64,000 nucleotides of DNA. It comes from a virus. Positions 32,301 to 48,271 of this stretch are shown here, in pieces. Below the pieces are notes generated by a model, which was not told the origin of the DNA, ran no database searches, and saw only the letters and a program-made list of their open reading frames with translations. The stretch lies in the IMG/VR virus record IMGVR_UViG_3300019487_000022, positions 25,241 through 89,240 of that record; one strand, written 5' to 3'. The position numbers and the translations under genes are program-made. How positions within the stretch are numbered: the stretch's first letter is position 1; each line of letters opens with the position of its first letter.

Positions 32301-35300
32301 GCAGCGCGTTTAGTTACATTTGTTGAAGCAGAAACCGGAGCATTAGCTGGTTGAGATGTAGCAGGTGCCTGAGCAGGACCGCCCATCATAGGCTTATCTT
32401 CTTCTACACTATTATCAGTAGAATTATCTGGTGATTCTGATACATCAGAAACCTCTAATGGATCACCACCGCATGTGTCAGTGCCACCGGGCCCATTAAG
32501 CGCACCGTCAATGTTTTCGATGTTTTCTCCAAGATCTCCATCTCCAACAAATTCAACATCAACGTCTGCTGCACCGCCATTCATTTTTGCAGCAACATCT
32601 TCTAAAGCGTCAATTAACATTCTTACAAGTCCAGCATCTTGTGCTACCTTGATGGATTTGATTTGAATATTTTCTGATTCTATCTTGGATGAAGCAAATT
32701 TTTTGCATGCCTTATTAAATGCTACCTTATCTTTTGGATCGGCACCAATTTCTGATACTGTGGCACGAATATCATATCCATCCATACCTTGGATAGCATC
32801 ATTAAGAGCAGCAAATTTATCAAATTCATCTTCAATTTTATCTACAGAAGCGAGTTTAGATGCAACTATCTTGTTAACTTTATCCATTGCTGGCTTCTGT
32901 TTCAATGAATAAAGCATTGTTTCAAATACATCTTCTGCCTTTGTTCCTGCAATAGCATTTTCTGCTACCGCAACAATTACTGCATCAAGAGTGCTTGTTT
33001 TGATTTCATTACCGGCAACTTTGTTAAAGTAATTTACGCTGTTCATTAAAGCCTTGCGCTCTTCATTTTTATGAGGCAAAGAGTTAAGAACAGTAATAAA
33101 TGCTACTTTATTTAATTCAGTCGGGTTATTTAAAACAGAAGATAATACTCTCTTGATATCTTCTGGGGTTTTCTTAAATGATGCAATAGCATCAGATATA
33201 GCATTGACTGCAATTTTGGTTAGTTGAGAAACATAAGATTTGGAAGCCCAACGTTTGATACCAGAGTCCTGGTTCTTTAACTGATCTTCAGTAATTGTTT
33301 CATATGTTCCAACAAAACGATGATCTTTCAAGAGTTTACGAAGTTGATCTTGAGTAATTGTTTCTGTCCAATCATCAGGAAGTTTAGCAGAAACCAAGTT
33401 GCTCATGTCAGTCCATTGTTTTTCAGTGATAACTTCTGGAGCATCGTTTGTACGAAGAATATAACCACTGGTAACTTTTGCCAACTGATCTTCAGTGATT
33501 GTTTCGTAGGTTCCAAGTCTCTTTTGTGGAGATTCAGAAGTTGTGTCATTGCTCTTATCATCTGATCTTCCAAGTTGTTCTTTGGATTCAGTTGTTTGCT
33601 CATAGGTTTCATTCCAACGAGGGTGAAGAGCAGGTGGATTTTTGGATAATTGTTTTTCTGTAATAACTTCCTGCTGGCTTGCATTGCCCTCTGTTTGAGC
33701 AGTTTTATTGGTTGGGGTAGACATTTTACTTTCTGACTCCTTAATATTTTGTAAATAATTTTCTAAATAATTCTCTGCAGCTTTGCGAATATCAGTTTCC
33801 GCTAGCTTAGCGATGTTATCTGGCAAATTAGCAGCAGTTTTGACTTCCAATATTGAACTACCTTTTGCCAATGCAAACATCTTGTTATTGCTACTTACTA
33901 GGACATGGTGAGAATTAACATCATCCTCATTTTCCCACACATTAACATTTTGAAAACTTACTATATTTGAATTAGTGTCGCTTTCAATTCTAAAATCATC
34001 GCTCACGTCGCTACTCCTAGTTAAGTTATCTATCTGTTCAATCAAGTTTTTAGCGATAATTAACCTCTTGATAAGATTATCTGCACTTTTTATAGATTCC
34101 TTCTTATTTTTACCTAAATCAGAAGACTGTTTCGGTAAAGTTATAGATCCTAAACCATCTGGTAATTCAGTTCTTGCTTCTTGTGAACTAGAAGCGTTAT
34201 TTTGTGGTGCTGGTTTTGGAGCAGGTGCTTTTGCTTGTTGTGATTGCTGCGGTTCTGCAGGTTGAACAGCACCAGTTCTGGCTAATTCTGCTTGAGGTGT
34301 AGATTGAAGTTGAGCGTAACCCATCTCATTTAATTCGTCATAAGTGTCTTGTAATTTTGACATTGCCTCAATAATTTGACCTATATATTCAGGATCTATA
34401 TGTTCTCTTTGTGATAACATACTTCTAGTAACATTCTCTAAACTCTTCATTGAGTCTTTGAGCATATCTAATTCTATTTGTCCTGCTATTTTTACTTCTT
34501 CAACGGATGCAGTTTTGATAGGCATAGATAGTTTTCCATCTGAAGCTGCCTTATCGAACATTCTTGGATTTTTTGCATGAATGAAACCAAGATCTGCAAT
34601 TTGTTTTTTAAGTTCTGCAATTTTCTTAGTAACTTCTGGGGCATGCAAAACACAAGTTACACCACATGAATGACATGCAGGATTAACAACAAATGAATTT
34701 TCAATAAACTTAAGATCGTAATTCCATTCAAAGACTTTTTCGCTATCAATTTCATGTTCCTTGGATGAACCCTTTTTGCATCCGCAAACTGGACAATCGC
34801 ATTCAGGCTTGCAATCGCTTTCGTGGAATTTACATGCGTATTTGCCGCTTTTTGTACGATTTTTAGATTCTTTAATGTGAGAACAGAATTCTTCTGCTGT
34901 GCTGGCTTTATTGTGACATATGGAACAGCAGGAATATCCTACTGCACAACCCATACTTGTCCCTGTTGCGTATCCCTCTTCAATACTTCTAGCTAATTTA
35001 GGATATGCAATTTTATCAACTCTAGCTATTAAATTGATACCTTTATCTTCCTTAGAGTACCAGGCATGTACGCATTCGCCTCTTGCATTTTCAATATCAT
35101 CATTCTTGTGATTAGTGAAGATAGGAACACCGATAAAGGTAGAAGCTGCCTTTGCTAATTCTTCTGGGGAAAAACAGTCAGCATTATCGTTTGGTTCATT
35201 TTCTTTTATAGCAAATATTTTTACAAAGAGATCATCGGGGTGTTTTTCAAGTTCTGCTGATAAAACTAATCCGCCTAAATCTTGATCATTTGATTTGCTG

Positions 35301-35416
35301 ATTGATGCTGTTTTTATTATTTTAGGTAGATTAAATATTTCCCAACCTTTAGGAGTATTTAATGGAACCATGCGTAATTTTACATTTTGTGATAAAGCGC
35401 TTTTAGTAAATGCCAT
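29333..35416 (-). CDS. Prohead maturation protease fused to a very long scaffold/core region (2027 aa)
   Basis: N-terminal FIGVPIFTNH...TGTSMGC gives the His/Ser pair of caudoviral prohead proteases. Cys-rich modules, low-complexity linkers and internal repeats follow. It sits between portal and MCP. Confidence 0.75.
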   Translation of the reverse strand: MAFTKSALSQNVKLRMVPLNTPKGWEIFNLPKIIKTASISKSNDQDLGGLVLSAELEKHPDDLFVKIFAIKENEPNDNADCFSPEELAKAASTFIGVPIFTNHKNDDIENARGECVHAWYSKEDKGINLIARVDKIAYPKLARSIEEGYATGTSMGCAVGYSCCSICHNKASTAEEFCSHIKESKNRTKSGKYACKFHESDCKPECDCPVCGCKKGSSKEHEIDSEKVFEWNYDLKFIENSFVVNPACHSCGVTCVLHAPEVTKKIAELKKQIADLGFIHAKNPRMFDKAASDGKLSMPIKTASVEEVKIAGQIELDMLKDSMKSLENVTRSMLSQREHIDPEYIGQIIEAMSKLQDTYDELNEMGYAQLQSTPQAELARTGAVQPAEPQQSQQAKAPAPKPAPQNNASSSQEARTELPDGLGSITLPKQSSDLGKNKKESIKSADNLIKRLIIAKNLIEQIDNLTRSSDVSDDFRIESDTNSNIVSFQNVNVWENEDDVNSHHVLVSSNNKMFALAKGSSILEVKTAANLPDNIAKLAETDIRKAAENYLENYLQNIKESESKMSTPTNKTAQTEGNASQQEVITEKQLSKNPPALHPRWNETYEQTTESKEQLGRSDDKSNDTTSESPQKRLGTYETITEDQLAKVTSGYILRTNDAPEVITEKQWTDMSNLVSAKLPDDWTETITQDQLRKLLKDHRFVGTYETITEDQLKNQDSGIKRWASKSYVSQLTKIAVNAISDAIASFKKTPEDIKRVLSSVLNNPTELNKVAFITVLNSLPHKNEERKALMNSVNYFNKVAGNEIKTSTLDAVIVAVAENAIAGTKAEDVFETMLYSLKQKPAMDKVNKIVASKLASVDKIEDEFDKFAALNDAIQGMDGYDIRATVSEIGADPKDKVAFNKACKKFASSKIESENIQIKSIKVAQDAGLVRMLIDALEDVAAKMNGGAADVDVEFVGDGDLGENIENIDGALNGPGGTDTCGGDPLEVSDVSESPDNSTDNSVEEDKPMMGGPAQAPATSQPANAPVSASTNVTKRAAARHEIEKQAQMLGGEMGGQGGAAQAPGAGATVPQPPGQEQQPVETFSQDGTDPSEQPEEEGEKKAKPPGAVCPGCGSANVDAVGKESKCNNCGTKFYTEIHNIITEQPGIFGGEKDGGQVEDEFGGEGFELPTDDTGQAPELPVAATMRLDKGVLTKLAEAKIELGSVSPITGSRNTMSLGDNKWVCLDTGRPYEVEFRAAKSASKDAPITPYARWTWTPPVNQNVCPSCRRARNELIKVLKNAGITEDQFDLMTPGQKTKVLAKIKEFASTSVSVKEGSVLADYKKTYASAYGEKFPIESCREKLARRYGKNALALSGPCEGKPIYDCVCNSLKKAQVYTDNIALKVAETWSDVDGTEDCVVYLVKNNLSLRQAAITCSALKTSLASDEEMFADDLGNDNPGDNGNGGDDNGGNNDGPPTDIDETRDDDFNPFDENSVEDNQVVTLELPLEVAKELDAKLDAQLGSNPADDANAGDTNNPLPGVETAQPDGAGMLSENDLVQEVGGPAELGLETSKPCANAAMNEAKPCSNGNAQQNNVQNHKKQEGFQQGPGEINNFKEGNPVMANGQAEKVANGEYSINEASYMRSSVGGVEKMNGLDYNALAAKLGLKVAGEKEIQQEKVQDSKDIGPFSAGDPQNGKTVGEMGHESETIPDASLPSVPRSDARMGHENENINKEENLPQIPSDKGTLGHESEVGLSGGDVRFTGGVGIGGGSPGAGQTEVKASEDGEIITAELETELRSMRGSVGNSKDREDALFERLATKLQAPKAVSEDEDLNPHSNGKALGHEEPFSAKKPNNTEDTGNGSMMGHEADTLGSVPKSPKDHPDVPEGGTSGALMGHEGDAELNPEKQTDIKGTVIAKSNEESKAARNKEAFRVAARLLKAGVIEETQLENKISQLAQYQPDQIRDYEKAVFAQVVSKNKGLRSVSEGLQKPLIINEASSMKKSSIDEQLVNQIQSLFKMDEMNQETAKNKDFGLLSSFNRI

Positions 35417-35483
35417 TTCTTATCTCTATAAATATGTTATATTCCATTACTTATACAATGCTTTACAGTAAAAATCCTTTATA

Positions 35484-35972
35484 TTATCCTTTGACGTGAC
35501 GTGGAATATTTTTATCAGTTAATACACTTTCTGGATAATTCGGAACACCTTGTGGAAAAGATATTCCCCATTTTTCTTGGGCGTGACTAAATGCAGCATG
35601 TGAATTAGAAAAATATTCTCCACTTGGAGAATAAACTAACTTATCAGGATCATCCGGCAATCTTTTAATTCCAGCAAAGAATCTTTTCTTTTGATCGGAT
35701 GTTATAGCAGGACCAACAACAACAAAGTAATCTCCATTTGTTGTATAATCATGACCTTCCCAACGCATATATGCTGCTGGTCCTATCATTTTATCAAAGC
35801 GACGTTTGAGCGAATCAGATTTTTCTCCATATTGCTCTTTCCAGTCTATGCCCCTGTCTTTAATACGTTTTCTTCCACCACTTTTTCCACCTGGACCACT
35901 ACCTGGTTTTGGACCTTTAGGAGGTTCTGGTGCTTTAGAGGATTGTGCTTGCTTTTGGTAATTAAATGCCAT
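35484..35972 (-). CDS. Head-module hypothetical protein
   Basis: 162 aa starting MAFNYQKQAQ. Confidence 0.65.
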   Translation of the reverse strand: MAFNYQKQAQSSKAPEPPKGPKPGSGPGGKSGGRKRIKDRGIDWKEQYGEKSDSLKRRFDKMIGPAAYMRWEGHDYTTNGDYFVVVGPAITSDQKKRFFAGIKRLPDDPDKLVYSPSGEYFSNSHAAFSHAQEKWGISFPQGVPNYPESVLTDKNIPRHVKG

Positions 35973-38241
35973 TAATATATCCTGCTTTAACGATGTATCC
36001 TATTTCATCACTTATATCTTCTATCTCTATTGCTATATCTCCTACTGCCGCTGTTTGTATTGTTTGTTTAATAGAAGCAAATTTAATCATACCACCACTT
36101 TGTTGAGCTGCTTTTTTTAAATCTTTTGCAGCTTCAGCAATTTGTTTTATAATTACATCTCTAACTACTGGTAAATGCTCTTTAATAGCTGTTTCGCTAA
36201 ACCTGAGTATTCGCCAACCTACATTGGATAACTTTTGATCTCTTTCCTGATCTCTCGCTTTTAATTCTGGACGCTCATGAAATATCTTTCCATCTGCCTC
36301 TATTCCAATTCCTAATTCAGGTAAAGCAAAATCAAGTAAGAAAGGTTGTTTTTGTCCAGGCAAAGAAACAGTATATTGACCATAAATTCTATATGGTAAA
36401 TTAAGATTTTTTAATTCGCTATATATACTAGCTTCTAATGAAGTTAATTTAAGAGGCTTCATTGGCACAGGTTCTGGCTCTTCTTTTTTGCCGCCTTTAC
36501 CTCTCTTCATTATTTTTGGAGGTGCTGAAGCTTGCGCTCCGCCTGGAGGACCGCCCATAGGCATCATACCTGGAGGCATTGGTGGAGCTCCGCCCGGAGG
36601 AGCGCCTGGTGGTGCGCCCGGTGGAGCTGCACCATCTGGACTACCCATTGGACCGCCGGGAGGTGCCCCGCCCCCGCCCATTGGTGGTGGACCACCCATT
36701 GGACCGCCTGGTCCACCTTGTTGACCACCCATAATTAATCCTGCAGCATTAGCGATCAATTCTTCTTGGCGGCGTTTTTCTATTTCTGCATCGTATTCGT
36801 ATCCTAATTCTGATACGATTGTTTGCATTGCTATACCGCCTTTATCATATACAGCAAGCATGCTTTGAATCTTATTAGAATTATCACGAAGATTCATGTC
36901 ATTCCATTTAATCTTCGGATATACATAAAATTTTCTATTGTACTTTTCTGATTTTTCGTTGTCTATAAATCCTTGCATTTCTGCTATAGGCAAAAATACA
37001 TGTCTTTCCACCCAATTTTTTAATTTTGTACGCCATTGTTCTAAACGACGTATCATAATTTCAATACCAACTTGAGCTGAATTGTATCCAGCCATTTCTC
37101 CATTAAGAATAGCTTGATTTAACATCAAACCATCTAATATTTCTTTACCTATCAATTCCATTTCTGTATTGAGCTGTACAATTTTACCATTTGCACCATA
37201 CCATTCATATTTAAAAGCATGGTGAGTAACAATAGTTAAATTAGGATCGTTTGCTACTTGTCCAATTAAATTCACAACATCTTGAATATCATCTTCTACT
37301 GCAGGACGATCTTTATCTCCTATCATAATAACCCTGATTGGTAAGATCATTCTTTCAGCCACGATCCAATTCGCCGTCATTATTTTTGTTTTATAGCTTA
37401 AAATCGTAAACAATCTACGCAACATAGATGTACCATAAGTAGCATACCCAGATGCATTATGTTTTATATGACTTATAGATCTACTTGAAAGAGGTATTGG
37501 ATGACCGGCTTCAACTAATTCTACTAACCAATCTGGTAAAGATTCATAAATTTGTTTAGGTTGTTTGCGCTGAATAACGAGCTTTAATTCTTCATCAGGA
37601 AGTAACGCAATTACTTTTTCTTTTGAAAGCACATTGTCTTGCACTTCGATGTAATCAGGATTCATTACTCTGATAGATTCAATTATTCCACCAGGATGAT
37701 TACATTGCTCTCCTGTATCGGGATCAATTTGTGATCCATTGCATTGAGGACAAGTAATTTCGGCAAATGGAAAAACATCACCCAGCAAAAAATAATCATG
37801 ACTGATATAACTAAACCATTCATTTAGTTCTAAGTCTTCTACTATTTGCTCATAATATTCAAGTATCTTTGCGTTCGGGCATTCGAGTTTAAAACCATTC
37901 ATAGGGAAGTTAGTGTAAAATTCAACACCAGCTGCTACTTTAGGTTCATTTTCATAAAAGAATCTTGCCCATTGATAAACTTCTCTTCTTTTAGATGCTA
38001 CTTGCCAGTTTTGTGGAGTATGTAATGGAGAAAAGAACATCGGCTGTGTAAATAATACACGAGCATCGTTTCCTAGAAATTGAGAGTTTTTAGTAATAGG
38101 AACTTGGGAAAGCCCACTTTTCGTGAAACGAGGTTTATTTTTTCCCCCAGAAGTAGGAGCGGAAAGTGATCCTATAGATGCAACTCGTTTCTGTAATTGT
38201 TGCTCCCGCCTATTCGGAATTTTTAACTGCATTATTGCCAT
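35962..38241 (-). CDS. Portal protein with a Pro/Gly/Met-rich linker and C-terminal DUF559 (Vsr-like) nuclease domain
   Basis: Portal-like body (WARFFYENEP, YGTSMLRRLF, ERMILPIRVIMIG) in the expected position. C-terminus LDFALPELGIGIEADGKIFH...RDQKL...GWRILRFSE matches DUF559. Confidence 0.75.
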   Translation of the reverse strand: MAIMQLKIPNRREQQLQKRVASIGSLSAPTSGGKNKPRFTKSGLSQVPITKNSQFLGNDARVLFTQPMFFSPLHTPQNWQVASKRREVYQWARFFYENEPKVAAGVEFYTNFPMNGFKLECPNAKILEYYEQIVEDLELNEWFSYISHDYFLLGDVFPFAEITCPQCNGSQIDPDTGEQCNHPGGIIESIRVMNPDYIEVQDNVLSKEKVIALLPDEELKLVIQRKQPKQIYESLPDWLVELVEAGHPIPLSSRSISHIKHNASGYATYGTSMLRRLFTILSYKTKIMTANWIVAERMILPIRVIMIGDKDRPAVEDDIQDVVNLIGQVANDPNLTIVTHHAFKYEWYGANGKIVQLNTEMELIGKEILDGLMLNQAILNGEMAGYNSAQVGIEIMIRRLEQWRTKLKNWVERHVFLPIAEMQGFIDNEKSEKYNRKFYVYPKIKWNDMNLRDNSNKIQSMLAVYDKGGIAMQTIVSELGYEYDAEIEKRRQEELIANAAGLIMGGQQGGPGGPMGGPPPMGGGGAPPGGPMGSPDGAAPPGAPPGAPPGGAPPMPPGMMPMGGPPGGAQASAPPKIMKRGKGGKKEEPEPVPMKPLKLTSLEASIYSELKNLNLPYRIYGQYTVSLPGQKQPFLLDFALPELGIGIEADGKIFHERPELKARDQERDQKLSNVGWRILRFSETAIKEHLPVVRDVIIKQIAEAAKDLKKAAQQSGGMIKFASIKQTIQTAAVGDIAIEIEDISDEIGYIVKAGYINGI

Positions 38242-38248: not shown

Positions 38249-38809
38249 TTATCCATCTATTGCCAAATCTGTACATGATTTTGTTATTTCATCGACTTTT
38301 TTTCTATATAAACTATTTGCATCATTAGGATCTACTAACTGCTTAAATTCCTTTCCTGTTAATGTATCAGTTGTGGTTGGAAAATTCTGAGATTTAGGAA
38401 AATGTCTTTTACGTATTTTCTTTTTCTCTAATAAACCTATATCCATGTTTTCTAAACTAGCTACAGTAAATCTTCCTGTCTTAGAATCAAAATAGGTATT
38501 AGACAACAAGACATTCTTTGTCGGATCTATTTCTTTTGGTTTAGATGGATCAGGCTGTCTGAGTTGGAGTTGTCCTGTTTCAGATAAATTAGAATTTAAA
38601 GGAAATCCACAATTGTGGCAAGATGTTTCCTGAGCATTAACCCTGCTATTACACTTTGGGCATACATGCTTAGTATCTAATGGTTTTTGTGGTTTTTCTC
38701 CAAATGGAGCGAGAGGCTTTAAACCGCCATTTTCAGGTGGGCGACCTTCATTAAGCCAAGCAGTTTTTAACGCTTGAAAGGTTCTACCTTGAGACGCTGT
38801 TTTTTTTTT
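38249..38809 (-). CDS. Zn-ribbon C-terminal extension of the 38767-40299 protein, reached by a -1 shift at an A10 run
   Basis: Open frame of 186 codons bounded upstream by TAA at 38813-15, with no ATG/GTG/TTG for ~100 codons; reads KKKTASQG...CPKC...CHNC. Confidence 0.65.
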   Translation of the reverse strand, partial: KKKTASQGRTFQALKTAWLNEGRPPENGGLKPLAPFGEKPQKPLDTKHVCPKCNSRVNAQETSCHNCGFPLNSNLSETGQLQLRQPDPSKPKEIDPTKNVLLSNTYFDSKTGRFTVASLENMDIGLLEKKKIRKRHFPKSQNFPTTTDTLTGKEFKQLVDPNDANSLYRKKVDEITKSCTDLAIDG

Positions 38810-40299
38810 ACGTTACTTTGGGCAGCTTTATTGGTTAACCGATAAGTTAACAATGCAGCATTAAACGCAGCGCCAATCTGAGGATTAACGCCAACTAACT
38901 GAGTCCAATCAAAGTTGTTCGGATTTTGTTTCCATTCTTCAAAAAGAGCTTTGCCAAAATCTTTTGGACTCATGTTATCAAGTGCTGCTTGTGGAGCAGC
39001 CATTTCATCTAAATCTGCGTTAATATCTTGTTCGATATCTGCAGGGATAGGTGGTTCCATTGTAGGATTACCAAGAGCCTGTTTTGTTATTTTTTTTGCA
39101 GAAGCTTCTTTCCAATTAAAAGGAGCGCTTGTATCATTAAACACTCTACCAACATTCCCATCATTCTTATGACGCATTGCTTGTAAACGAGCTTCTGTGC
39201 TTCCGTATTCTGGAAGGTATGGGCGACGGCGTTCACCTGGTAAAAGTTGATAATTGTTTGTTACTGGAATATTCTTATCAACTTCAAATCTTTTCTGGAT
39301 ATATCCGCCAATCCATTCGCCTGTTTCTGAATCACGATAAGGACGGCTGTATTTGTCCATGATATTACCACGCCATACAGCTTCCCAATCAACTCCCCAA
39401 TAACCATCTATATCTTGTCCAAAACCTTTATTTCTTTCTAAAATGTGCCAGTCAGAAACAGGTTGACCTCTCATAAAAGGATCAGGACGTGTTTGAGCTG
39501 GACCCCACATTATTATATTTTCTGATGCTTTATGTTGAGCATATTTTTTGAAGTTAAAAGCCTTCTCCGATGCTCTTTTTTCATTTGCAGCCTTTTCAGC
39601 AGCTTCTTTAATAGCAAGAGTTACTTCTTTTAGGTAATCAGCGAGATTTGCTTTTGTATAAGGAGCCTGCAAGGTCATTCCTTCTGCAGGATTAGACGTA
39701 TCAGTTTGTTGGTTTTTCATATTATTTGGTAAATTCTGATAAATCATTTCAGCTAAATTTAGTTTTACTTCTTCATTTTGTTCAGTAAAGAATCTATCTA
39801 ATGCATCTTGTGCTGTATTACTGCCTGATATAGCTTGGATTAGTTCAGGGTTAAATTGCTGTGCAGTTTCTAAACTTCCATATGAAGATAATTCATCTTT
39901 TAAATCTTCATGACTGTTAAATTGGTTATTATTTGGTTGATTTGTATTGTTAATATAATTTTGTTCTGCAGCTGTTCCTGTTGGATTTGCTTCAGCTCCA
40001 AATGGGTCGGTAGGAGAAGCGGGCGCAAAGTTATTTTGTTGCGAATATCTCATGAAATTAAATGCTTGACTATTACTCACTACGCCTTTTTCCAAATTGT
40101 TTAAGTTTTCCACTGTGTTTTTCATGTCGTTTTTCCATTCAACCGCTGGATCATTTGGTGTTTCTGCAATAGCTGATTGCATTTCTGCTTTTTCTATTGC
40201 TGTTTGCATCGCATTAAGATCAGTTTGCGGTATCCCCTGCCTTAATTCCTCTGGCAACATTAAAAAACGCGCACGAATTTCATCTGGTCGCATGAACAT
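38767..40299 (-). CDS. Head-module protein (putative internal head protein)
   Basis: 510 aa with FNFMRYSQ, FNFKKYAQ and FNWKEAS motifs; ends VKKKQ...* across the A10 run. Confidence 0.7.
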   Translation of the reverse strand: MFMRPDEIRARFLMLPEELRQGIPQTDLNAMQTAIEKAEMQSAIAETPNDPAVEWKNDMKNTVENLNNLEKGVVSNSQAFNFMRYSQQNNFAPASPTDPFGAEANPTGTAAEQNYINNTNQPNNNQFNSHEDLKDELSSYGSLETAQQFNPELIQAISGSNTAQDALDRFFTEQNEEVKLNLAEMIYQNLPNNMKNQQTDTSNPAEGMTLQAPYTKANLADYLKEVTLAIKEAAEKAANEKRASEKAFNFKKYAQHKASENIIMWGPAQTRPDPFMRGQPVSDWHILERNKGFGQDIDGYWGVDWEAVWRGNIMDKYSRPYRDSETGEWIGGYIQKRFEVDKNIPVTNNYQLLPGERRRPYLPEYGSTEARLQAMRHKNDGNVGRVFNDTSAPFNWKEASAKKITKQALGNPTMEPPIPADIEQDINADLDEMAAPQAALDNMSPKDFGKALFEEWKQNPNNFDWTQLVGVNPQIGAAFNAALLTYRLTNKAAQSNVKKKQRLKVEPFKR

Positions 40300-41130
40300 T
40301 TACTTTTTTGCCTTATTTGTGCTGTTGATCCAGTTATCTAACATATTATCAACAATACTACTTGAATTTACGCTTTTATAAGATGAAATATATTTATCTT
40401 TTTGACTCTCTTCTCTTTCCTTTTGTTTGTTGTTTCTCGCACGTTCTCCATCAGACATGGATGCTAATCGTGGAAAATCTCCTTCATTAGAAAATTGGTC
40501 AAATATGCTCATACTATTGCGGTTATTAGAGAATCTAGCTGTATCTTCATGAACAACTTGATCGTCATTAGAAGATATAAAAGAAGTTTTTCTTGTATCT
40601 ACAGAATCCATTTCTTTCATTCTTTCTTCATATTCTTGATCTTTTGCAGCTTTCTTTTGAGCAGCAATAGTTTCTCTTTCTTCACGTATACGGGTTCGTG
40701 AATCTTTTTGAGCTAAAACTTCTTCGATACGATCAGCATTAAAAATAGATGGACTAGATTCTCCTTTTACATATTTATTTGGATTAACATTTTCTCCATC
40801 CATCATATGCATAGAAGAAACAGAGCCTAATCTTTGAGATCTATTTTCAGGGTCGAAATTGTTATTAAGTTTATTTGTCTGATTGTCTACAATTTCATCT
40901 TGCGTATTTTTAGGAGCAGGCTTTTGAACTGTATTGCCGTCTAAAAATGGTATGGAATCTAGGAGACTTTGAGAATATACGTTTTTAGAACTTCTCTGTG
41001 AAACACGCAAGTTTTGCTGTTCTTTAGGAGCGTTATATTTATCATGAGTTGCTTGAGCTTCTTTTTCGACTTTTTCCCAATCAATATTTAAGAAGTTCAA
41101 TTGATCTTCTTTACGAGTTTTTTGTACCAT
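40300..41130 (-). CDS. Hypothetical head-module protein
   Basis: 276-aa charged ORF in the operon. Confidence 0.65.
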   Translation of the reverse strand: MVQKTRKEDQLNFLNIDWEKVEKEAQATHDKYNAPKEQQNLRVSQRSSKNVYSQSLLDSIPFLDGNTVQKPAPKNTQDEIVDNQTNKLNNNFDPENRSQRLGSVSSMHMMDGENVNPNKYVKGESSPSIFNADRIEEVLAQKDSRTRIREERETIAAQKKAAKDQEYEERMKEMDSVDTRKTSFISSNDDQVVHEDTARFSNNRNSMSIFDQFSNEGDFPRLASMSDGERARNNKQKEREESQKDKYISSYKSVNSSSIVDNMLDNWINSTNKAKK

Positions 41131-41830
41131 TTTTGCTCCCGAATACCAATTGCATTAAATTATATTGTTTTTCTTGACTTTCTTTAATTAATTCCGTAAT
41201 GGTCTTAGCATTCTTCATATTAGGTTTACCTTTACCGCCGCCAGCAGGCTTACCATATACTTTGTCAAGAATATCACCTGGACCCGCATCCTCCATCGAC
41301 TGTTGAGCAGCAGCATCTGAACTAATGAAATTCAAAGTTAATTGTTCATTAGCTCTTTTATAATCTTGGAAAGATAAGGCATGCTTTTGTTCAACTATTT
41401 GAACTAATTCCTTGAGTTTTTCCCTTGGAATTTGTGTGTTTTTACCATAAACTTCGTCTGGTAATACCAGAGTAACCTGTGTCCCGCTATTAGCAGAACC
41501 AGTCTCTGAAACAAATTTTGATCTAAATTCTTGTAAACGACGTGGTGGATAACCTAAACCAACAAGAAATTCGAATACAGTATGACGGATATCTCCTTCA
41601 TTTGTATTTTGTTGAACAGGTGGCTGTTCTTCATTGTTTTGTTGTTCTTCTAACTGATCAACTTGATTCTCTAATTGATCTATATTAGGTTGCTCATTGC
41701 CTGGATCCTCAGCTGAAGGCACTTGTTCTGGATCAATACCTGTAGTGTCCAACTCACCTGCCATTTCAGATGTGGGACTTGGCATTGTTTGAGCAACCAT
41801 TAATCGTCGTTTACCGCTTGGTACTAACAT
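41111..41830 (-). CDS. Hypothetical head-module protein
   Basis: 239 aa, starts MLVPSGKRRLMVAQ. Confidence 0.65.
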   Translation of the reverse strand: MLVPSGKRRLMVAQTMPSPTSEMAGELDTTGIDPEQVPSAEDPGNEQPNIDQLENQVDQLEEQQNNEEQPPVQQNTNEGDIRHTVFEFLVGLGYPPRRLQEFRSKFVSETGSANSGTQVTLVLPDEVYGKNTQIPREKLKELVQIVEQKHALSFQDYKRANEQLTLNFISSDAAAQQSMEDAGPGDILDKVYGKPAGGGKGKPNMKNAKTITELIKESQEKQYNLMQLVFGSKNGTKNS

Positions 41831-41916
41831 AAATTCCTTTGCTTTTCTTTATTGTTGTAACACGTCTGTTATGAATAACAAATGTGTATAAAAATTAAAG
41901 CTGCGGTAATTAACAA

Positions 41917-42672
41917 TTATTTGTCGCCAAGCATCTTAGCAACATATTCTGCTGGGTACATACTGCCCCAGTATTTTTTCAACCAAGCTTTAGACTTATT
42001 GTCAAGGTTAGCTAAACGAATAAACTTGTTAGAAGAAGCTTTCTTATCAGCCTTTTCTTCTGTTTCTTCCTTCTTACCAAAAGGAGGAGCTTTCTTATCG
42101 CCAAAATTGTCAATTCCAGCTGCTTCCTTGGTTTCTTCAGTCTTGACCTCTTCCTTCTTGCAACGTCCACATCCCTTAGCAGCTTCTTTAACTTCACCAG
42201 CAGCGTCAGCTTTCTTTTGATCGCCATCACCGCTACGATGCTTACCTGCATCTGGATCGTTAGTTAATTTTGGAAAATCTGCTTTAGCTTGCCCGCTGTC
42301 TTTTGCAGGACCATTATTCTCGTTGTCTTTATCTTGACAACCAGAAGCTTCAACAGTCTTTGCTGGCTCGCTGGATGCTGAAGTTGCACTGTCTGAACCC
42401 TTAGCGTCTGTCTTGCCCTTTACCTTCGGTGTGGATTCACCTTCTTGATGAAGAGGCTCAACATCTAGTTGACCAGATGATTCAGCTTCATCTTTTTCAT
42501 TTGCAGTTTTAACTGCAGGTGCTACTGGGGCTTGAACAGAAGCAACCTTGCTCATACCTTGCTTTGGCTGTACTTCTTGAAGCTTTTTATTAATGAAATC
42601 CTGGAAAGACACAGCTTTACCAGTATTGATTTGAGTCATAAATTCCATATTGCTATATTCTCCTAAATACAA
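41917..42672 (-). CDS. Low-complexity head-module protein
   Basis: Lys/Ala/Glu-rich with several K-x-A-S/N motifs; AGGAG RBS. Confidence 0.65.
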   Translation of the reverse strand: MYLGEYSNMEFMTQINTGKAVSFQDFINKKLQEVQPKQGMSKVASVQAPVAPAVKTANEKDEAESSGQLDVEPLHQEGESTPKVKGKTDAKGSDSATSASSEPAKTVEASGCQDKDNENNGPAKDSGQAKADFPKLTNDPDAGKHRSGDGDQKKADAAGEVKEAAKGCGRCKKEEVKTEETKEAAGIDNFGDKKAPPFGKKEETEEKADKKASSNKFIRLANLDNKSKAWLKKYWGSMYPAEYVAKMLGDK

Positions 42673-42708
42673 AAATGGTATTCCGTTTTAATTCTTTATA
42701 AAAAAGTG

Positions 42709-45063
42709 TTAAAAACCCTTCTTTATTTTACGAATGAGTTTGTTTATATCTTTATTTGTTATCGCTACTTTGCGTAAATCATCTTCACTTGAAGCAGCTA
42801 CTGCCGCCGGAGCAGTAGGAGCTTTAGGTGCGAAATGCTGCAACATTTGTTTTATGCTACCTTTAACAGCCTTATGGTAATCACCATGAGTTGGTCTACT
42901 GATCCATTGTTTAACTGCTTCAATAGATTCAGGATTTGGAGTTTTTCCGTTACTTACGTCGCTAAGAAAAGATGTAATTCCCTGTTCTAAGCCGCCTGTT
43001 ATGCTTTTTACAAGAGCTGGATTCATTTGAAATGCAGGAAGCCATTTTTTTGCATCTTCAAGTAACTTAGGAGAAACTTGTTTAGTTACGTTTTCTATTT
43101 CAGGACCAGTAACCGGATTTGATGGGGCTTCAGGTGCTACTGTTGGTGACGGTTTTGCTTCTGTTGGAGCTGTAACACCCTGTTGTTTTTTCTTTGCTAA
43201 TTCTTTTAAAGTATTTTTAGAATTAGCAATGAACTCCTGTTGAGTTTTTGGAGCTGATGGTTGAGCAATCATTGGTGGAGGTACAGCTTCTACCACAGGT
43301 TCAGTTACTGTCGAAGGAGGATTTACTTTTTCTGGTGCTGCTGTTGAAGCAGGGGAAATAGTGGATGTCGGTGGAGCTTGTAATTTTGGTTTTACAGGAG
43401 TCTCTTTTTTAACTGGAATCTCTTGTGTAGGCTCAATTTTTTTATTTACTGGAGGTTCCACTGCTTTTACTGTTGGATCGCTCGTATTTAATGGGGCTAT
43501 ATCGTACAGATCCTTATTAGCAGGTGGAGTGGTTTTATTATTTTGAACTATGGGTTCAGGCGCAGCAATATCATAAGGATCTTTTTTAGATGGAACTTTT
43601 GCAACAGGAGGATTAGCCGAAGGCGTTGTTTGTGAAGGAACCACATCATAAGGTTGAGCCTTGCCTGCATTTGCTGCTGGATTTACTTGTAATGAGGCAA
43701 CAAAAGTAACTCCAAATTGCTTTAAATTATTTTTAGCTTGAGATGAATTTGTATTATAAAGCTTTAATAACCATTCCCCAACTTCTTGAGCATTCAAGGC
43801 TTGGGCGAATAATTTTCTGTGCCAAGATGAAAATGCTGCAGTACTAAGAGCATTAACTGTAAATGGTGCATTTTGAGCTTTTAAGAATGCATTTACTGCA
43901 GTCAAGTTTGCAGGTTGTTTTAAGAAATCACTTATTCTTTGAGTAAATGATTTTGTTGTATCGTTAGATACGGGCGAAGTATTTTGAGCAACTGGAGCAG
44001 GTTGCGGAGATGCTGCAGGAGATGCTTGTTGTATTTGCGGATTAACAACGTTTTGTCTTGTTTCCTGTGTAGGCGCAAGATTGTTAGTTTGCCCTGCAGC
44101 ATTAGCTATAACATTTGCCAAATTATCAAGTTGTTTACGTCTAGATTGCATATCTTGCAAAGGAGTATTTGCAAAGTTATTAAATGCAACCATGATTTGT
44201 TGATAGATTTGACCAGCGCTTGGGCTATTCCTGGACATTTGCCCTAAAACGTTCAATTCAGCAGAAATATTTTGTTGCAATTGAGCCATTTGCTGATTGA
44301 TCTGTTGTTGTTGGTTTAAAGGCAACTGGGACATATCGTTAGGAAAACGAGTTCTCAAATTTTGCACTGCTAACAACGCTCTTTGTAAGCGTTGTTTCAT
44401 CATTTCATTATTCGCATTACCTGTCCATGAGTTAAACTGTTCTTTTCCCCATTGAAGCCAATTTTTCGGGTTCCAAAGGTTAGCATTAAACTGTGAGATC
44501 TTTAATAATTCATTAGCTAGATCTGCTGTCTGAAGAGCTAAATCTTTTTTATTGTTATTATGTAACGTCTCAGCTAATTTTGCCATCTTCTGAGATGCTG
44601 TAATAACATCTTCAGTAAGATTTGCCTTTATTTCATCTATGCTTTCAAATACGGCAACAGGCAAAGATGTTCCCAATGATACTTTTTTCTGTATCATTCC
44701 ATTAAAAATATTATCCTCTTTGGTCCAGACATGTTTGTTATTTGCTGTTTTGACAAAACTTACAGCCTGGTCTGCATATTTATCCCAATCACTCTCATCT
44801 TTTCCAAAAGATGCTAAATATTCTTTGTGACACTCGAACCAGATTTCTTGAGCCGATTTATTTGTTGCTGTTCTTTTTTGGCGGTAACAGTTACTCCAGC
44901 ATCGCTGATTGCGAATTGCATATCCTGTAGAACCTACATATTGTGCTTGAACAATACGAATTGTTTGTTTATTTACATCATCAACTATATCTGCTGCTTT
45001 AAATAGTTTAGCTGCATCAAGATTATTAGCTAAAGAAGTAAGTTTTTTGTTAATATCAATCAT
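42709..45063 (-). CDS. Large Gln/Pro-rich putative internal head protein
   Basis: 784 aa with long Q- and P-rich tracts and K/R-x-A motifs. Confidence 0.65.
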   Translation of the reverse strand: MIDINKKLTSLANNLDAAKLFKAADIVDDVNKQTIRIVQAQYVGSTGYAIRNQRCWSNCYRQKRTATNKSAQEIWFECHKEYLASFGKDESDWDKYADQAVSFVKTANNKHVWTKEDNIFNGMIQKKVSLGTSLPVAVFESIDEIKANLTEDVITASQKMAKLAETLHNNNKKDLALQTADLANELLKISQFNANLWNPKNWLQWGKEQFNSWTGNANNEMMKQRLQRALLAVQNLRTRFPNDMSQLPLNQQQQINQQMAQLQQNISAELNVLGQMSRNSPSAGQIYQQIMVAFNNFANTPLQDMQSRRKQLDNLANVIANAAGQTNNLAPTQETRQNVVNPQIQQASPAASPQPAPVAQNTSPVSNDTTKSFTQRISDFLKQPANLTAVNAFLKAQNAPFTVNALSTAAFSSWHRKLFAQALNAQEVGEWLLKLYNTNSSQAKNNLKQFGVTFVASLQVNPAANAGKAQPYDVVPSQTTPSANPPVAKVPSKKDPYDIAAPEPIVQNNKTTPPANKDLYDIAPLNTSDPTVKAVEPPVNKKIEPTQEIPVKKETPVKPKLQAPPTSTISPASTAAPEKVNPPSTVTEPVVEAVPPPMIAQPSAPKTQQEFIANSKNTLKELAKKKQQGVTAPTEAKPSPTVAPEAPSNPVTGPEIENVTKQVSPKLLEDAKKWLPAFQMNPALVKSITGGLEQGITSFLSDVSNGKTPNPESIEAVKQWISRPTHGDYHKAVKGSIKQMLQHFAPKAPTAPAAVAASSEDDLRKVAITNKDINKLIRKIKKGF

Positions 45064-45126
45064 GCTCTTAACCTTAAATTACGATATTATATTCGTTTAA
45101 ACTACGAAAAACTTTATCAGAAACCT

Positions 45127-46044
45127 TTAAGTCTTTACTGTAAATTTGGGTGTAAATTCTCTTCCTACAAAGGAATTGAACAATATATTGTCTATTATGA
45201 AAGCTCTAATATCCCCAACTGTTTCATCAAAAGTTACAACTATAGTATTTCCAGTACTTGCTGCATTGAATGTGCCGTGAGGTTCCACCTCTCTCTTTAT
45301 GTCTCTTCCTCCCTTGGTTTTATACCAAATTTCAACCACTTCATGTTCCTGTTCAGCCCATTGCATAGCTTCATGAGGGGATGAGAAATTAGGATATTCT
45401 TTTTCTGGAACTTCAAATTCTGTAGGTTCTTCTAATTCTGGGCTTTCTTGTGTAATTTCAGGCTCTGCTTCTGGTTGCTGCATTTCATCAGGTATTTGTT
45501 CATTATCTGTATCATCATAAGAATCTTCTAATATACCAGCTAAGTTAGAGACATCTATAGTGGGTAAGTTTGTTGTGTTTTGCTTATTATTCTGTGTTTG
45601 TACTGGAATAGCTGAAGGGGTTTGTAGGAATTGAGGTTGTACATCCTGCATTATTTGAGCTATTTTAATATGATACATTTCTGAATCTTTTATAAAATTA
45701 ATTAGAGCTCCGTCTGCTTCTTGTTTTACCAATTCAATTTTATCACCAACATTAATATTGTTTTTATCAAAAAAACCCATATTTGCTTCAATGGCGATAG
45801 AACAAGATGTAGAACTTGCTACCGTAATATCTGACATTGGTTTAATATGTGATATCTGGGTTATGGAGTTATTGTCATCTATAAAAGCTATATCTAAAGG
45901 AATAAAGGTATTAACACCCCAGAATCGGAGTTTTTGGGGTTTATCAAAAACAAAAAGCATACCCTCATCATCAGGCATGTCTTTTCTAAACATTAAACCT
46001 TGAGCTTTTTTATATGGTGTATCAGCTATTTCTACAAAAAGCAT
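45127..46044 (-). CDS. DUF192-family domain fused to a C-terminal WYL-like domain
   Basis: VEIADTP...QGLMFR...GMLFVF...FWGVNTFIPLDIAFI (DUF192). VEIWYKTKGG...REVEPH...IRAFIIDNI (WYL-like). Confidence 0.7.
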   Translation of the reverse strand: MLFVEIADTPYKKAQGLMFRKDMPDDEGMLFVFDKPQKLRFWGVNTFIPLDIAFIDDNNSITQISHIKPMSDITVASSTSCSIAIEANMGFFDKNNINVGDKIELVKQEADGALINFIKDSEMYHIKIAQIMQDVQPQFLQTPSAIPVQTQNNKQNTTNLPTIDVSNLAGILEDSYDDTDNEQIPDEMQQPEAEPEITQESPELEEPTEFEVPEKEYPNFSSPHEAMQWAEQEHEVVEIWYKTKGGRDIKREVEPHGTFNAASTGNTIVVTFDETVGDIRAFIIDNILFNSFVGREFTPKFTVKT

Positions 46045-46048
46045 AATA

Positions 46049-46450
46049 TTATATGATAGAATACCTAAACTTATTCCTTTCCAGATCTTCTATGAATTCA
46101 TCTAATTCAATATCTGGAACTTCAAAAATCATATATTGGTTTTTCTGTTCTACAATTATTTCAGAATTGGAATCATTATAGTATGTAAAATTACGAAACC
46201 AATTATGCAATTTCTTTACGTCCTTTTCATTTATTTTGACTTCAGAGCTCGCAGTAATAATTTCTTTAGGGAGTAAGCGATAACCTGGAATAGGCAAAGA
46301 AGGATCGTATGTATAAGCCATTTTTATTTCTGTTCCAACAGCTTTGTACATTTTCTTATGTACTGCATCATACCAATATAGTGTTCTATTTTTTTGAAAG
46401 CTATTTTCAGATTTGTTTGGCAGTTCAACTTTTATTATCGGCATCTTCAA
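46049..46450 (-). CDS. Hypothetical protein
   Basis: 133-aa operon member. Confidence 0.6.
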   Translation of the reverse strand: MKMPIIKVELPNKSENSFQKNRTLYWYDAVHKKMYKAVGTEIKMAYTYDPSLPIPGYRLLPKEIITASSEVKINEKDVKKLHNWFRNFTYYNDSNSEIIVEQKNQYMIFEVPDIELDEFIEDLERNKFRYSII

Positions 46451-46892
46451 ATCTCTTCCACCAATTATCAGAAGCAGTTTTAGTCAAGTTATGACCTCGT
46501 AATGTTGAAGCTTTCTTTGTGTTAGACAAAGCCTCTGAATAACCTATAAGTTTATCGTCTTTTTTATCAAATATTGAAGAATCATCTCCCAAAACCATGA
46601 CCCGTATAACTTTAGCACCTTTATCTGTTATCTCTATATTATCACCGTTCGTTTTTATAAGTCCTGAATCGCTCATGGATTCTACTTGGGATGCAGAAAC
46701 GGTATATGGTCTTTGGTAAACACGATCACTTATTTTATTTTTCTCATCTTTCCAAATAGCAAATAGATTTTTTGCAGCAACTGGATCTATTGCATTTTCT
46801 TCTTTTGATTTGATTTGAACTTGTAATCCTGGCATTATCTGAATTAAATAATCAAATAACGTTGGAGAGAATTGAGATTTTTTCTGTAACAT
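46425..46892 (-). CDS. Hypothetical protein (winged-helix-like end)
   Basis: 155 aa; SGLIKTNGDNIEITDKG resembles a wHTH wing. Confidence 0.55.
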   Translation of the reverse strand: MLQKKSQFSPTLFDYLIQIMPGLQVQIKSKEENAIDPVAAKNLFAIWKDEKNKISDRVYQRPYTVSASQVESMSDSGLIKTNGDNIEITDKGAKVIRVMVLGDDSSIFDKKDDKLIGYSEALSNTKKASTLRGHNLTKTASDNWWKRFEDADNKS

Positions 46893-46940
46893 AATATATA
46901 ATATATTCTTACAATATTTGCTTTTAACCTTTATAAGTCT

Positions 46941-47717
46941 TTAATTCCAGAACAACACAGACCTACCTGGATATGGACTATCATTTTCTCTATTATACCA
47001 ACTGAACGGTTCGTTTCTTATCTCTCTCCAATAATGACCTTCTCCAACACGTCCATCATTATTGTAGTTTTCTAATCCCTTTCTATATCTTCTTTGCTTA
47101 CGAATATCGCTGTCACGTTGTCGAAAATCATTTTCATCTTCCCACCAAGACCAAACTCTTTCTTCCATTGGCAAATCCAAATTAGCCCAAGGACCACTTA
47201 TGCCTTCTGCAGTTTTGTAATTATTAACGTGATTTTTTCCTTTTGCTGTAAATTTTAATAGAGATCTTATATATAGTAATCTTTGAACTACACGTTGAAC
47301 CCAATCAATAGATATTTTAGTATCAATAATCTCATTCATTTGAGAAGGCATGAATTCTGTAATATCTTTTTCTAAAGAAGCTTGTAAAACTTTTTTATAT
47401 CTAGTTATCTCCTGATCTTCAAAACAATCTAAGAGTTTTGCAAGTTCTTTTAGACTAAATATAAACAATTTTGTTATTTTAGCATCTGGTGATGATGCTA
47501 TTGGTTCTGGTCTCAATAATGTTTTGATAACATCAGTCCACAGATTATGTAAAAGATGACTATTCTCTTTGATAAAAGCCTCAATATGAGTAATCGCTTC
47601 AAGAATAGGTTTAGTTACTTTTTGTTCTTGTAAAGAGAATTCTACGTGTCCATTATTGACTAACTTAAAGCCAAAATGTAACAATTCTTTTTGAATTATA
47701 GTCCAGTTATCACTCAT
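46941..47717 (-). CDS. Hypothetical protein
   Basis: 258-aa ORF overlapping the next gene (ATGA). Confidence 0.65.
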   Translation of the reverse strand: MSDNWTIIQKELLHFGFKLVNNGHVEFSLQEQKVTKPILEAITHIEAFIKENSHLLHNLWTDVIKTLLRPEPIASSPDAKITKLFIFSLKELAKLLDCFEDQEITRYKKVLQASLEKDITEFMPSQMNEIIDTKISIDWVQRVVQRLLYIRSLLKFTAKGKNHVNNYKTAEGISGPWANLDLPMEERVWSWWEDENDFRQRDSDIRKQRRYRKGLENYNNDGRVGEGHYWREIRNEPFSWYNRENDSPYPGRSVLFWN

Positions 47718-48271
47718 TTATTTCTTTCCACGGCGACAGTTATATGAAACTCATGCCCTTTGAGCTTCTTAGATAAGCCGTACTTCTCTCTTATTTCTTC
47801 TAATTCAGGTGATTCTACTTCTACAAACCATACACGTTTTATACCTTTCCAAGATTCAGGGTCTACAGAATAGAATTTTCCTAATTTAAAATGTACCTCT
47901 GTTCCACTATCTTGAAAAGGTTTTTCTTTGGTTAATTCTTTTGCGTTAATTACAGAAATATGAGCGCCAACATTGTTATAATCATCTTCAAGATAAGGCG
48001 GTTTTTCCTTTGTTTCTGAGTCTATTAACGAAAACAGACCATGAATGACATCGTTTGAAATATCAACATAAACGAAGCCATCGTAGGTCTGTTTTACTGT
48101 ACCTATCAAAGGTACTTGTAATTTTCTTGCAATTTTAATAAATCCGCTTTTGGTATTAGCAGATAAATTACTTACATATTCTTTTGGAAATATTTCTTTC
48201 CAATATTTCTTAAAATTCTTTTTGTTCTTTTTGAGTTTATCTTTATATTTTTCAGTTTTAATAATTTTCAT
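47714..48271 (-). CDS. 2H phosphoesterase superfamily protein
   Basis: Two HxS/T motifs, GAHISVI and EFHITVA, about 73 aa apart. Confidence 0.75.
   Translation of the reverse strand: MKIIKTEKYKDKLKKNKKNFKKYWKEIFPKEYVSNLSANTKSGFIKIARKLQVPLIGTVKQTYDGFVYVDISNDVIHGLFSLIDSETKEKPPYLEDDYNNVGAHISVINAKELTKEKPFQDSGTEVHFKLGKFYSVDPESWKGIKRVWFVEVESPELEEIREKYGLSKKLKGHEFHITVAVERNK

What the first reader, a model, noticed from the sequence alone, without database searches (positions are those of the whole stretch)
38249..40299. Probable programmed -1 frameshift or slippage at an A10 run adds a Zn-ribbon tail to a head protein
Seen (minus strand): ...AAC GTA AAA AAA AAA CAG...TAA ends the 510-aa ORF. The -1 frame opens right after a TAA, reads KKKTASQG...CPKC...CHNC... 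for 186 codons, and has no start codon for ~100 codons. It starts with the same K-T-A-S motif seen across the module. A small AAGGT/ACCTT stem lies 9 nt downstream. Inference: two products (510 aa and ~680 aa) at a set ratio, in the head rather than the tail module.
Basis: partly seen in the sequence, partly recalled or inferred. Interest (0 to 1): 0.62.

Follow-up and report, generated by a model that had tools for sequence, protein, structure and literature searches.

The report
Conserved poly-A slip site before portal
A run of ten A's near the end of the gene just before the portal gene of a large uncultured cave phage is a slip site kept in dozens of distant relatives. It should let one gene make a short protein and a rarer long one with a zinc-ribbon tail: a known trick, in a gene family nobody has described.

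Summary
On the minus strand a 510-aa ORF (38767-40299) passes an A10 run (38800-38809). The -1 frame opens just before the run and codes 186 residues without a start codon for about 100 codons. It holds a CxxC...CxxC zinc ribbon and ends ...SCTDLAIDG.

This is not an assembly error. All 58 related viral contigs keep the gene directly upstream of the portal. In 50 the tail lies in the -1 frame behind an A9-A11 run, in 7 it is fused but still carries the run, and in none is it in the +1 frame. Runs are never shorter than 9. Both non-tail frames stop within 6 codons. No RNA structure or SD-like motif is conserved. Fused forms are scattered tips on the tree.

Best reading: a programmed slip makes two products, most likely by RNA polymerase stuttering (+1 A), possibly with a -1 ribosomal slip. 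No RNA or protein data were available, so the product ratio and the protein's function remain unknown.

The mechanism is a known kind (Thermus dnaX, Shigella mxiE) in an undescribed phage head-module family. The scan noted the same site on other DNA (e1-5829826, e1-5632288).

The parts
38767..40299 (-). Zero-frame ORF of 510 aa, the short product. It has a helical N-terminal part, a strongly conserved core (about residues 266-400), a roughly 100-aa extension, then KKK at the slip site.
   Evidence: There are 302 database relatives. 105 of the best 120 end with KKK plus 0-12 residues.
38800..38809 (-). A10 run: the slip site (GTA AAA AAA AAA C in the zero frame).
   Evidence: Runs of A9-A11 sit at the same junction in 57 of 58 related loci. 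It is the only A/T run of 9 or more in the held contig.
38249..38812 (-). The -1 frame extension: 186 codons plus stop, reached only by a frame change. It is disordered at its start and holds a zinc ribbon, a beta hairpin and two helices.
   Evidence: It aligns end to end with the C-terminal parts of the fused homologues (P0004, E 2e-43).
38767..38799 (-). Dual-coding overlap. The zero frame reads QRLKVEPFKR*, the short form's own C-terminus. The -1 frame reads TASQGRTFQAL.
   Evidence: The ending (V/I)EP(I/F)(R/K)R* is shared by the window's nearest relatives (P0002, P0003, P0005, P0013, P0014, P0022, L003).
38609..38662 (-). Zinc ribbon CPKC-x10-CHNC of the tail.
   Evidence: The four Cys are invariant or at least 90% conserved in 48 tails. 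pLDDT is above 90. Pfam DZR_2/DZR/Zn_Ribbon_1 match below the curated cut-off.
38252..38278 (-). Conserved C-terminal motif SCTDLAIDG at the end of a helix.
   Evidence: Nearly all tails and all fused forms end ...DL(A/E)IDG or a close variant.
35962..38241 (-). Portal gene immediately downstream (context). It has a C-terminal DUF559-like domain.
   Evidence: A portal lies downstream on the same strand in 58 of 58 related loci.

Best explanation
The A10 run is a programmed recoding site that makes two proteins from one gene.

Standard decoding gives the 510-aa short form, which ends 12 codons after the run. A minority of messages or ribosomes change to the -1 frame inside the run. That gives a 683-aa long form, ...SNVKKK-TASQG..., carrying a zinc ribbon and a C-terminal DLAIDG helix.

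The most likely route is RNA polymerase stuttering on the T10 template, which adds one untemplated A. Any mRNA with another run length ends at once in a nearby stop and still yields a short form. A -1 ribosomal slip on A_AAA_AAA would give the same protein and may contribute.

Shown here: the anatomy, its deep conservation, and purifying selection on the tail frame. Inferred: that slippage happens, at which level, and in what ratio.

The function is inferred from position only. This is a head-assembly or head-internal protein whose gene is locked to the portal gene, with the long form as a low-copy variant.

The confidence given is for 'conserved programmed recoding that yields two products'. 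Within that, I put the polymerase route at about 0.55 and the ribosomal route at about 0.3.
For: 1. Frame arrangement. Of 58 related viral loci, 50 have the tail in the -1 frame behind an A9-A11 run, 7 are fused but keep A10 or A11, one (L054) lacks the run, and none has the tail in the +1 frame.

2. Independence. The loci share only about 70% nucleotide identity, so the run is kept against heavy divergence. Same-phage contigs from different samples (98.9-100% identical) keep the same run length.

3. Database-wide pattern. 105 of the 120 best homologues end KKK plus 0-12 aa, and 13 of the remaining 15 end in a ...(A/C)(I/Y)D(G/N) tail motif, mostly ...DLAIDG. A tail-profile search of 1.84 billion proteins gave about 65 short tail fragments against about 13 fused forms.

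4. The tail frame is under selection. It has 4 invariant or near-invariant Cys and a conserved C-terminal motif at about 25-30% identity.

5. No independent start. 13 of 40 loci have no ATG/GTG/TTG between the run and the first CxxC, and where starts exist they are not conserved in position.

6. The slip window is tight. The overlap is often only 13 nt (TAAAAAAAAAAGTTAG). Both non-tail frames stop within 6 codons in 48 of 53 rows, against 20% in the background.

7. Tree. The fused state needs at least 6 changes for 7 tips, and four of them (L001, L007, L016, L032) pair directly with a -1 locus or the window.

8. For the transcriptional route. Runs are 9, 10 or 11 and never 7-8. The phase of the run varies between 0 and 2. 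No conserved downstream or upstream structure was found (mean z -0.38 and -0.28). SD-like motifs are not enriched (6 of 48 against 6.0 expected). There is no Rfam match. Nine A/T is the length at which slippage becomes selectable in many bacteria, and Thermus dnaX uses A9 with nearby stops in both other frames (PMC1088944; PMC5009743).
Against: There is no RNA or protein evidence. No RNA run holds this DNA, and contigs cannot show minor run lengths.

Every run of 9 or more A's also contains a valid A_AAA_AAA or A_AAA_AAG heptamer, so sequence alone cannot separate the polymerase route from the ribosomal one.

A10 runs also mutate easily in replication. L001 (fused) and P0011 (shifted) are 99.7% identical up to KKK and differ as a single A would predict. 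Some of the signal could therefore be DNA-level polymorphism.

The host and its RNA polymerase are unknown. The function of both products is unknown: there is no Pfam, PHROG, PDB or fold match.
Confidence: 0.85

Rival explanations
1. Same two products, but made mainly by -1 ribosomal frameshifting, or ribosome sliding on the lysine A-tract, on a uniform A10 mRNA.
For: A_AAA_AAA is in phase in the window. Some relatives have the classic A_AAA_AAG heptamer in phase, for example L008 and L050. A-rich heptamers are proven shift sites in bacteria (PMC4066793).
Against: Seven A's would be enough for this route, yet no relative has fewer than nine. No conserved stem-loop, pseudoknot or SD-like stimulator was found. 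The heptamer type and phase are not conserved. Only the homopolymer length is.
Confidence: 0.3
2. DNA-level phase variation. Replication slippage switches the phage population between A(n), short form only, and A(n+1), fused long form. The two products would then come from different genomes.
For: The fused state appears at least 6 times as single tips. L007 (A11, fused) and its sister L011 (A10, shifted) differ by one A at the run. L001 (fused) and P0011 (shifted) are 99.7% identical.
Against: Same-phage contigs from different samples keep the same run length. The -1 state dominates 50 to 7. No locus sits in the +1 frame, although free drift of the run length would produce that. Fused forms never found a clade. 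These tips could also be assembly errors.
Confidence: 0.1
3. The tail is a separate downstream gene started at an internal or non-canonical start codon, with no recoding.
For: Gene callers list many 90-250 aa tail ORFs. Some loci have an ATG before the zinc ribbon. L054 has no run and has a TTG at tail codon 3.
Against: The window has no ATG/GTG/TTG for about 100 codons, which is past the zinc ribbon. 13 of 40 loci have none before the first Cys. Start positions are not conserved. Conserved residues begin right at the run. Seven natural fusions join the parts exactly at KKK.
Confidence: 0.03
4. Assembly or sequencing error (the true run is A11), or a dead gene broken by a one-base loss.
For: Homopolymers are error-prone. 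Depth here is only about 10. A minority of relatives are in frame.
Against: A second assembly of the run agrees with A10. The same break in the same direction recurs in 50 independent loci and in 105 of 120 database proteins. The tail frame is under purifying selection. The short form has its own conserved C-terminus.
Confidence: 0.03

Closest known systems
Thermus thermophilus dnaX (tau/gamma), transcriptional slippage on an A9 run (PMC1088944; PMC5009743)
   Same: A homopolymer of 9 or more A's inside a coding sequence. Stop codons lie close behind it in the non-productive frames. Two products share the N-terminal part. No RNA structure is needed.
   Different: In Thermus the templated frame gives the long product and slippage gives the short one. 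Here, and in 50 of 58 relatives, it is the reverse; only the 7 fused relatives look like Thermus. The gene is a phage head-module gene of unknown function, and nothing has been tested.
Shigella flexneri mxiE and spa13 (transcriptional slippage fuses two overlapping ORFs; PMC1088944, PMC5009743)
   Same: One extra untemplated base in a homopolymer joins an upstream ORF to a downstream ORF that has no start of its own, giving a minority long product.
   Different: Those are regulators or parts of a bacterial secretion system in one genus. This is a phage structural-module gene conserved across very divergent phages.
Tail assembly chaperone G/GT -1 frameshift of lambda-like phages (Xu et al. 2004, as cited in PMC10885494 and PMC5009743)
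   Same: A recoding site conserved across many dsDNA phages in a morphogenesis gene. It adds a C-terminal extension to a fraction of the product.
   Different: That site lies between the tail tube and tape-measure genes and uses heptamers such as G_GGA_AAG with ribosomal slippage. This site lies between the terminase and the portal, is a homopolymer of 9 or more A's, and belongs to an unrelated protein family.
Head-gene frameshifts: Lactobacillus phage A2 major head protein (PMC355979, cited in PMC10885494); T7 gene 10A/10B (my own knowledge)
   Same: A -1 shift near the end of a head gene gives a second, longer virion protein.
   Different: Those are the major capsid proteins themselves. Here the capsid protein is a separate gene (27764-28648).
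Retroviral Gag-Pol (analogy only)
   Same: A frame change near the end of an abundant assembly protein makes a rare fusion that could be carried into the particle and then cut free. Candidate K-x-A-(S/Q) cut motifs flank the slip site.
   Different: There is no homology. Cleavage, packaging and the ratio are all untested.

Membership tests
Transcriptional slippage site (dnaX-Thermus / mxiE / IS type) | Homopolymeric A or T run of about 9 or more in the coding strand | tested here: met
   A10 in the window. Runs of 9 to 11 in 57 of 58 relatives, never fewer.
Transcriptional slippage site (dnaX-Thermus / mxiE / IS type) | Stops close behind the run in the frames that do not give the extended product | tested here: met
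   Both non-tail frames stop within 6 codons in 48 of 53 rows, against 20% in the background. The window itself is looser, at 10 and 5 codons.
Transcriptional slippage site (dnaX-Thermus / mxiE / IS type) | mRNA population with mixed run lengths while the DNA is uniform | not testable with these tools
   No RNA run holds the stretch. The single DNA run is kept only as contigs.
Programmed -1 ribosomal frameshift | X_XXY_YYZ heptamer in the zero-frame phase | tested here: met
   GT[A AAA AAA] AAA in the window. Every relative's run contains an in-phase A_AAA_AAA or A_AAA_AAG.
Programmed -1 ribosomal frameshift | Conserved stimulator: a downstream stem-loop or pseudoknot, or an upstream SD-like site | tested here: not met
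   Downstream 50 nt gives mean z -0.38 and upstream 30 nt gives -0.28, with some loci not folding at all. SD-like 4-mers occur in 6 of 48 against 6.0 expected. No Rfam match. A stimulator is not obligatory for every site.
Programmed recoding in general | Trans-frame protein product detected | not testable with these tools
   No proteomic data are available. The product is inferred from purifying selection on the tail frame and from natural fusions.
Phage tail assembly chaperone G/GT | Located between the major tail gene and the tape-measure gene, with homology to gpG/gpT | tested here: not met
   The gene lies between the terminase (51117-53093) and the portal (35962-38241). No Pfam or PHROG match.
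Zinc ribbon (Pfam DZR / Zn_Ribbon_1) | Two CxxC knuckles about 10-20 residues apart and a profile match | tested here: inconclusive
   CPKC-x10-CHNC with conserved Cys and a confident beta-knuckle model. The Pfam scores of 18-20 bits are below the cut-offs of 25-27.

The most novel reading that the evidence does not exclude
The slip site may set the dose of a cargo protein in a Gag-Pol-like way. The abundant short protein is built into the prohead next to the portal. The rare long form carries the zinc-ribbon module in with it. The prohead protease, whose domain sits on the 2027-aa protein two genes downstream, then cuts at K-x-A-(S/Q) sites on both sides of the slip site (...KEA|S-SKKK-...KxA|Q...). 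That would free a roughly 180-aa zinc-ribbon protein inside the capsid at a fixed low copy number, possibly for DNA binding or ejection with the genome.
Probability: 0.25. Interest if true: 0.75.

Novelty: new member of a known kind. Interest (0 to 1): 0.55.

Why it matters
If real, this is a second widely conserved recoding site in tailed-phage morphogenesis genes, besides the tail-chaperone frameshift. It sits in the head module of a large and ecologically widespread group of uncultured phages, found in marine, freshwater and cave samples on contigs up to hundreds of kb.

It has a practical consequence. Annotation pipelines currently split this gene into a 'hypothetical protein' and a truncated zinc-ribbon ORF, or flag it as a pseudogene.

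Because the run length and not a heptamer or structure is conserved, the family is a natural test bed for programmed polymerase slippage in phage late genes. It also points to an unknown low-copy zinc-ribbon component linked to the portal.

Tried and rejected
IMG/VR loci were used instead.
- No RNA holder is listed for this stretch. Only Logan contigs of one DNA run could be laid, and these cannot show minor run lengths.
- Function. Pfam and PHROGs give nothing for the 510-aa protein. A PDB profile search gave nothing. The AlphaFold model (pLDDT 72, pTM 0.30) has no Foldseek match in PDB or BFVD. The ESM Atlas gave nothing usable.
- blastn and tblastn against 50,697 GenBank phage records found no match, so no cultured relative was found.
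SD-like stimulators are not enriched. There is no Rfam family.
- An alternative genetic code was not needed, because all neighbouring genes read cleanly in table 11.
- Literature searches found no report of this site or family.

Full report
**Observation.** On the minus strand the ORF 38767-40299 codes 510 aa and ends ...AAQSNVKKKQRLKVEPFKR*. The run is exactly ten A's (window 38800-38809), read GTA AAA AAA AAA CAG in the zero frame. The -1 frame reads TAA CGT AAA AAA AAA ACA and stays open for 186 codons to the stop at 38249-38251. It codes KKKTASQG..., a CPKC-x10-CHNC zinc ribbon, and the ending ...SCTDLAIDG. Its first ATG/GTG/TTG is a TTG about 100 codons in, beyond the zinc ribbon.

The next gene downstream is the portal (35962-38241, phrog_16240, E 2e-41). 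The terminase large subunit lies upstream at 51117-53093, and the major head protein downstream at 27764-28648. The gene therefore sits in the head module. A Logan assembly of the only public run that holds this DNA (cave metagenome, probably the source) also reads A10 with no indel. In the 123.8-kb contig held for this genome it is the only A/T run of 9 or more.

**One gene, two frames.** The 510-aa protein belongs to a large family with no name: 302 hits, and no Pfam, PHROG or PDB match. The family has a strongly conserved core, about residues 266-400 of the window protein. The window's -1 frame product aligns end to end with the C-terminal 160-200 residues of homologues that are single ORFs, such as P0004 (E 2e-43), P0027, P0016, P0021, P0024 and P0075. 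The join falls exactly on a conserved KKK. The two frames are therefore parts of one gene.

The wider picture shows the opposite. 105 of the 120 best homologues end with KKK plus 0-12 residues. 13 of the other 15 end in a ...(A/C)(I/Y)D(G/N) tail motif, mostly ...DLAIDG.

**Conservation of the frame change.** A scan of IMG/VR with the core alignment gave 58 loci. I built a profile of the tail and searched all forward frames.

- In 50 loci the tail is in the -1 frame relative to the core, behind an A9-A11 run.
- In 7 loci it is fused.
- One divergent locus (L054) has the -1 arrangement without a run.
- In no locus is the tail in the +1 frame.

In rows with an HMM-detected tail, run lengths in -1 loci are A9 in 9, A10 in 34 (including the window) and A11 in 3. 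The five loci added by hand are all A10. Fused loci carry A10 in 5 and A11 in 2. No run is shorter than 9.

The typical junction is TAAAAAAAAAAGTTAG. A stop in the tail frame comes immediately before the run, and the zero-frame stop follows one codon after it, which leaves a 13-nt window. The loci share only about 70% nucleotide identity, so they are separate phages. Four sets of near-identical contigs from different samples keep the same run length. All 58 loci have the portal gene downstream on the same strand.

**The tail is a real coding frame reached only by recoding.** Across 48 tails at about 25-30% identity, the four zinc-ribbon Cys are invariant or at least 90% conserved, and the C-terminal S-C-x-D-L-A-I-D-G motif is kept. 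In 13 of 40 loci there is no ATG, GTG or TTG between the run and the first Cys. Where starts occur, they are not conserved in position.

A search of 1.84 billion representatives with the tail profile gave, among single-stretch hits, about 65 short ORFs of 90-250 aa, which are gene-caller fragments. It gave about 13 fused proteins. That is the same 5:1 bias.

The short form also appears to be under selection. In the window's subfamily the zero frame continues for 10-14 codons to a shared ending, (V/I)EP(I/F)(R/K)R*. The 33-nt overlap 38767-38799 therefore codes in two frames.

**Fused forms are sporadic.** On a tree of the cores, the 7 fused loci need at least 6 independent changes. Four of them (L032, L016, L007, L001) pair directly with a -1 locus or the window: L032/L040, L016/L019, L007/L011, L001/window (this is the quick tree, because the careful search did not finish). 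L007 (A11) and L011 (A10) differ by one A at the run.

L001 (fused, A10) and the database protein P0011 are 732/734 identical up to KKK. P0011 then ends ALTR*, which is exactly what L001 would read with one A fewer. Fused states are therefore short-lived variants or assembly slips on a background in which the -1 arrangement is maintained. Even in the fused loci, both other frames stop within 0-5 codons of the run.

**Mechanism.** Both non-tail frames stop within 6 codons in 48 of 53 rows, against 20% for random positions in the same genes. This is the layout described for Thermus dnaX, where RNA polymerase slippage on A9 gives a mixed mRNA population and all off-frame messages end at once (PMC1088944; PMC5009743). 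Nine A/T is also the length at which selection against slippage becomes visible in many bacterial genomes (PMC1088944).

The relatives never go below nine A's, although seven would be enough for a ribosomal slip. The phase of the run varies between 0 and 2. No conserved structure lies downstream or upstream: mean z is -0.38 and -0.28, and the window's AAGGT/ACCTT stem has z -0.9. SD-like motifs are not enriched, and nothing matches Rfam.

I therefore favour addition of one untemplated A by RNA polymerase, as in Shigella mxiE. A -1 ribosomal slip on A_AAA_AAA is a real alternative or co-contributor, and both give the same 683-aa protein. No RNA or protein data were available, so this step is inference.

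**Function.** Function is unknown. The AlphaFold model of the short form (pLDDT 72, pTM 0.30) is mostly helical, with only moderate confidence in the conserved core. It has no fold match. The tail model shows a disordered start, a confident zinc ribbon, a beta hairpin and a C-terminal helix that bears DLAIDG.

K-x-A-(Q/S) motifs are about tenfold enriched in the family: 422 observed against 40.5 +/- 6.3 in shuffles, though the sequences are homologous and so not independent. They bracket the slip site (...PFNWKEAS-SKKK-...LKEAQL...). If that is right, the long form would be a polyprotein, and the slip site would set the dose of a released zinc-ribbon protein. I rate this at about 25%.

**Comparison and novelty.** The kind of mechanism is well known: dnaX in Thermus, mxiE and spa13 in Shigella, IS elements, and in phages the G/GT tail-chaperone shift and the head-protein shifts of phage A2 and T7. 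The gene family, its position before the portal and its breadth are not described in the papers I could search. No cultured phage in GenBank has a detectable homologue. The scan has flagged the same site on other genomes, and two follow-ups reached the same reading. I file it as a new member of a known kind.

Noticed in passing
window 35962-38241 (-): The portal protein carries a Pro/Gly/Met-rich linker of about 75 aa and then a C-terminal DUF559 / MTES_1575 (Vsr-like endonuclease) domain at residues 634-701. This is unusual for a portal.
   Followed up: partly
L001, L003-L009, L011-L015, L025, L029, L039, L045, L049, L056 and others: In about 20 related loci the best portal match starts only at portal residue 90-110, and 1.4-2.7 kb after the tail's stop. 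That suggests 1.1-2 kb of extra DNA, perhaps an intein, an intron or an inserted gene, in or before the portal's N-terminal part.
   Followed up: no
window 29333-35972 and 38767-51063 (-), head-module ORFs: An F-N-(L/F/W/Y)-x-K-x-A-(Q/S)-like motif recurs in several proteins: 162-aa protein residue 3, 2027-aa protein residue 28, 510-aa protein residues 80 and 248, 197-aa protein residue 4. It also sits at three conserved places in the family consensus. It may be a protease cut site or a capsid-targeting signal.
   Followed up: partly
window 29333-35416 (-): A 2027-aa protein whose N-terminal 60-260 residues match a head maturation protease (phrog_18299, phrog_2774). The rest is unassigned.
   Followed up: no
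L054:3902-5064: This is the one relative without an A-run. The core and tail frames overlap by 10 nt (TGAGGCGCGTTGA), with a TTG at tail codon 3, so this lineage may have turned the tail into a separately started gene.
   Followed up: no
L031:4633-5376 and L033:4504-5256: These tails carry an extra conserved segment of about 100 aa (...FFEGDEVELL...GTIRRFEG...) between the slip site and the zinc ribbon.
   Followed up: no
L015, L017, L021, L053 tail frames; L005:4723; L043:2791; L055:672: In the 489 kb of loci, which are oriented with this gene on the + strand, A runs of 9 or more outside the junction all lie on the + strand (17, against one T run). Some are in frame inside the tail or in neighbouring genes. 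Further slip-prone sites are possible.
   Followed up: partly
window 45127-46044 (-): A 305-aa protein with DUF192 (E 1e-29) and a weak WYL domain match, inside the block between the terminase and the portal.
   Followed up: no
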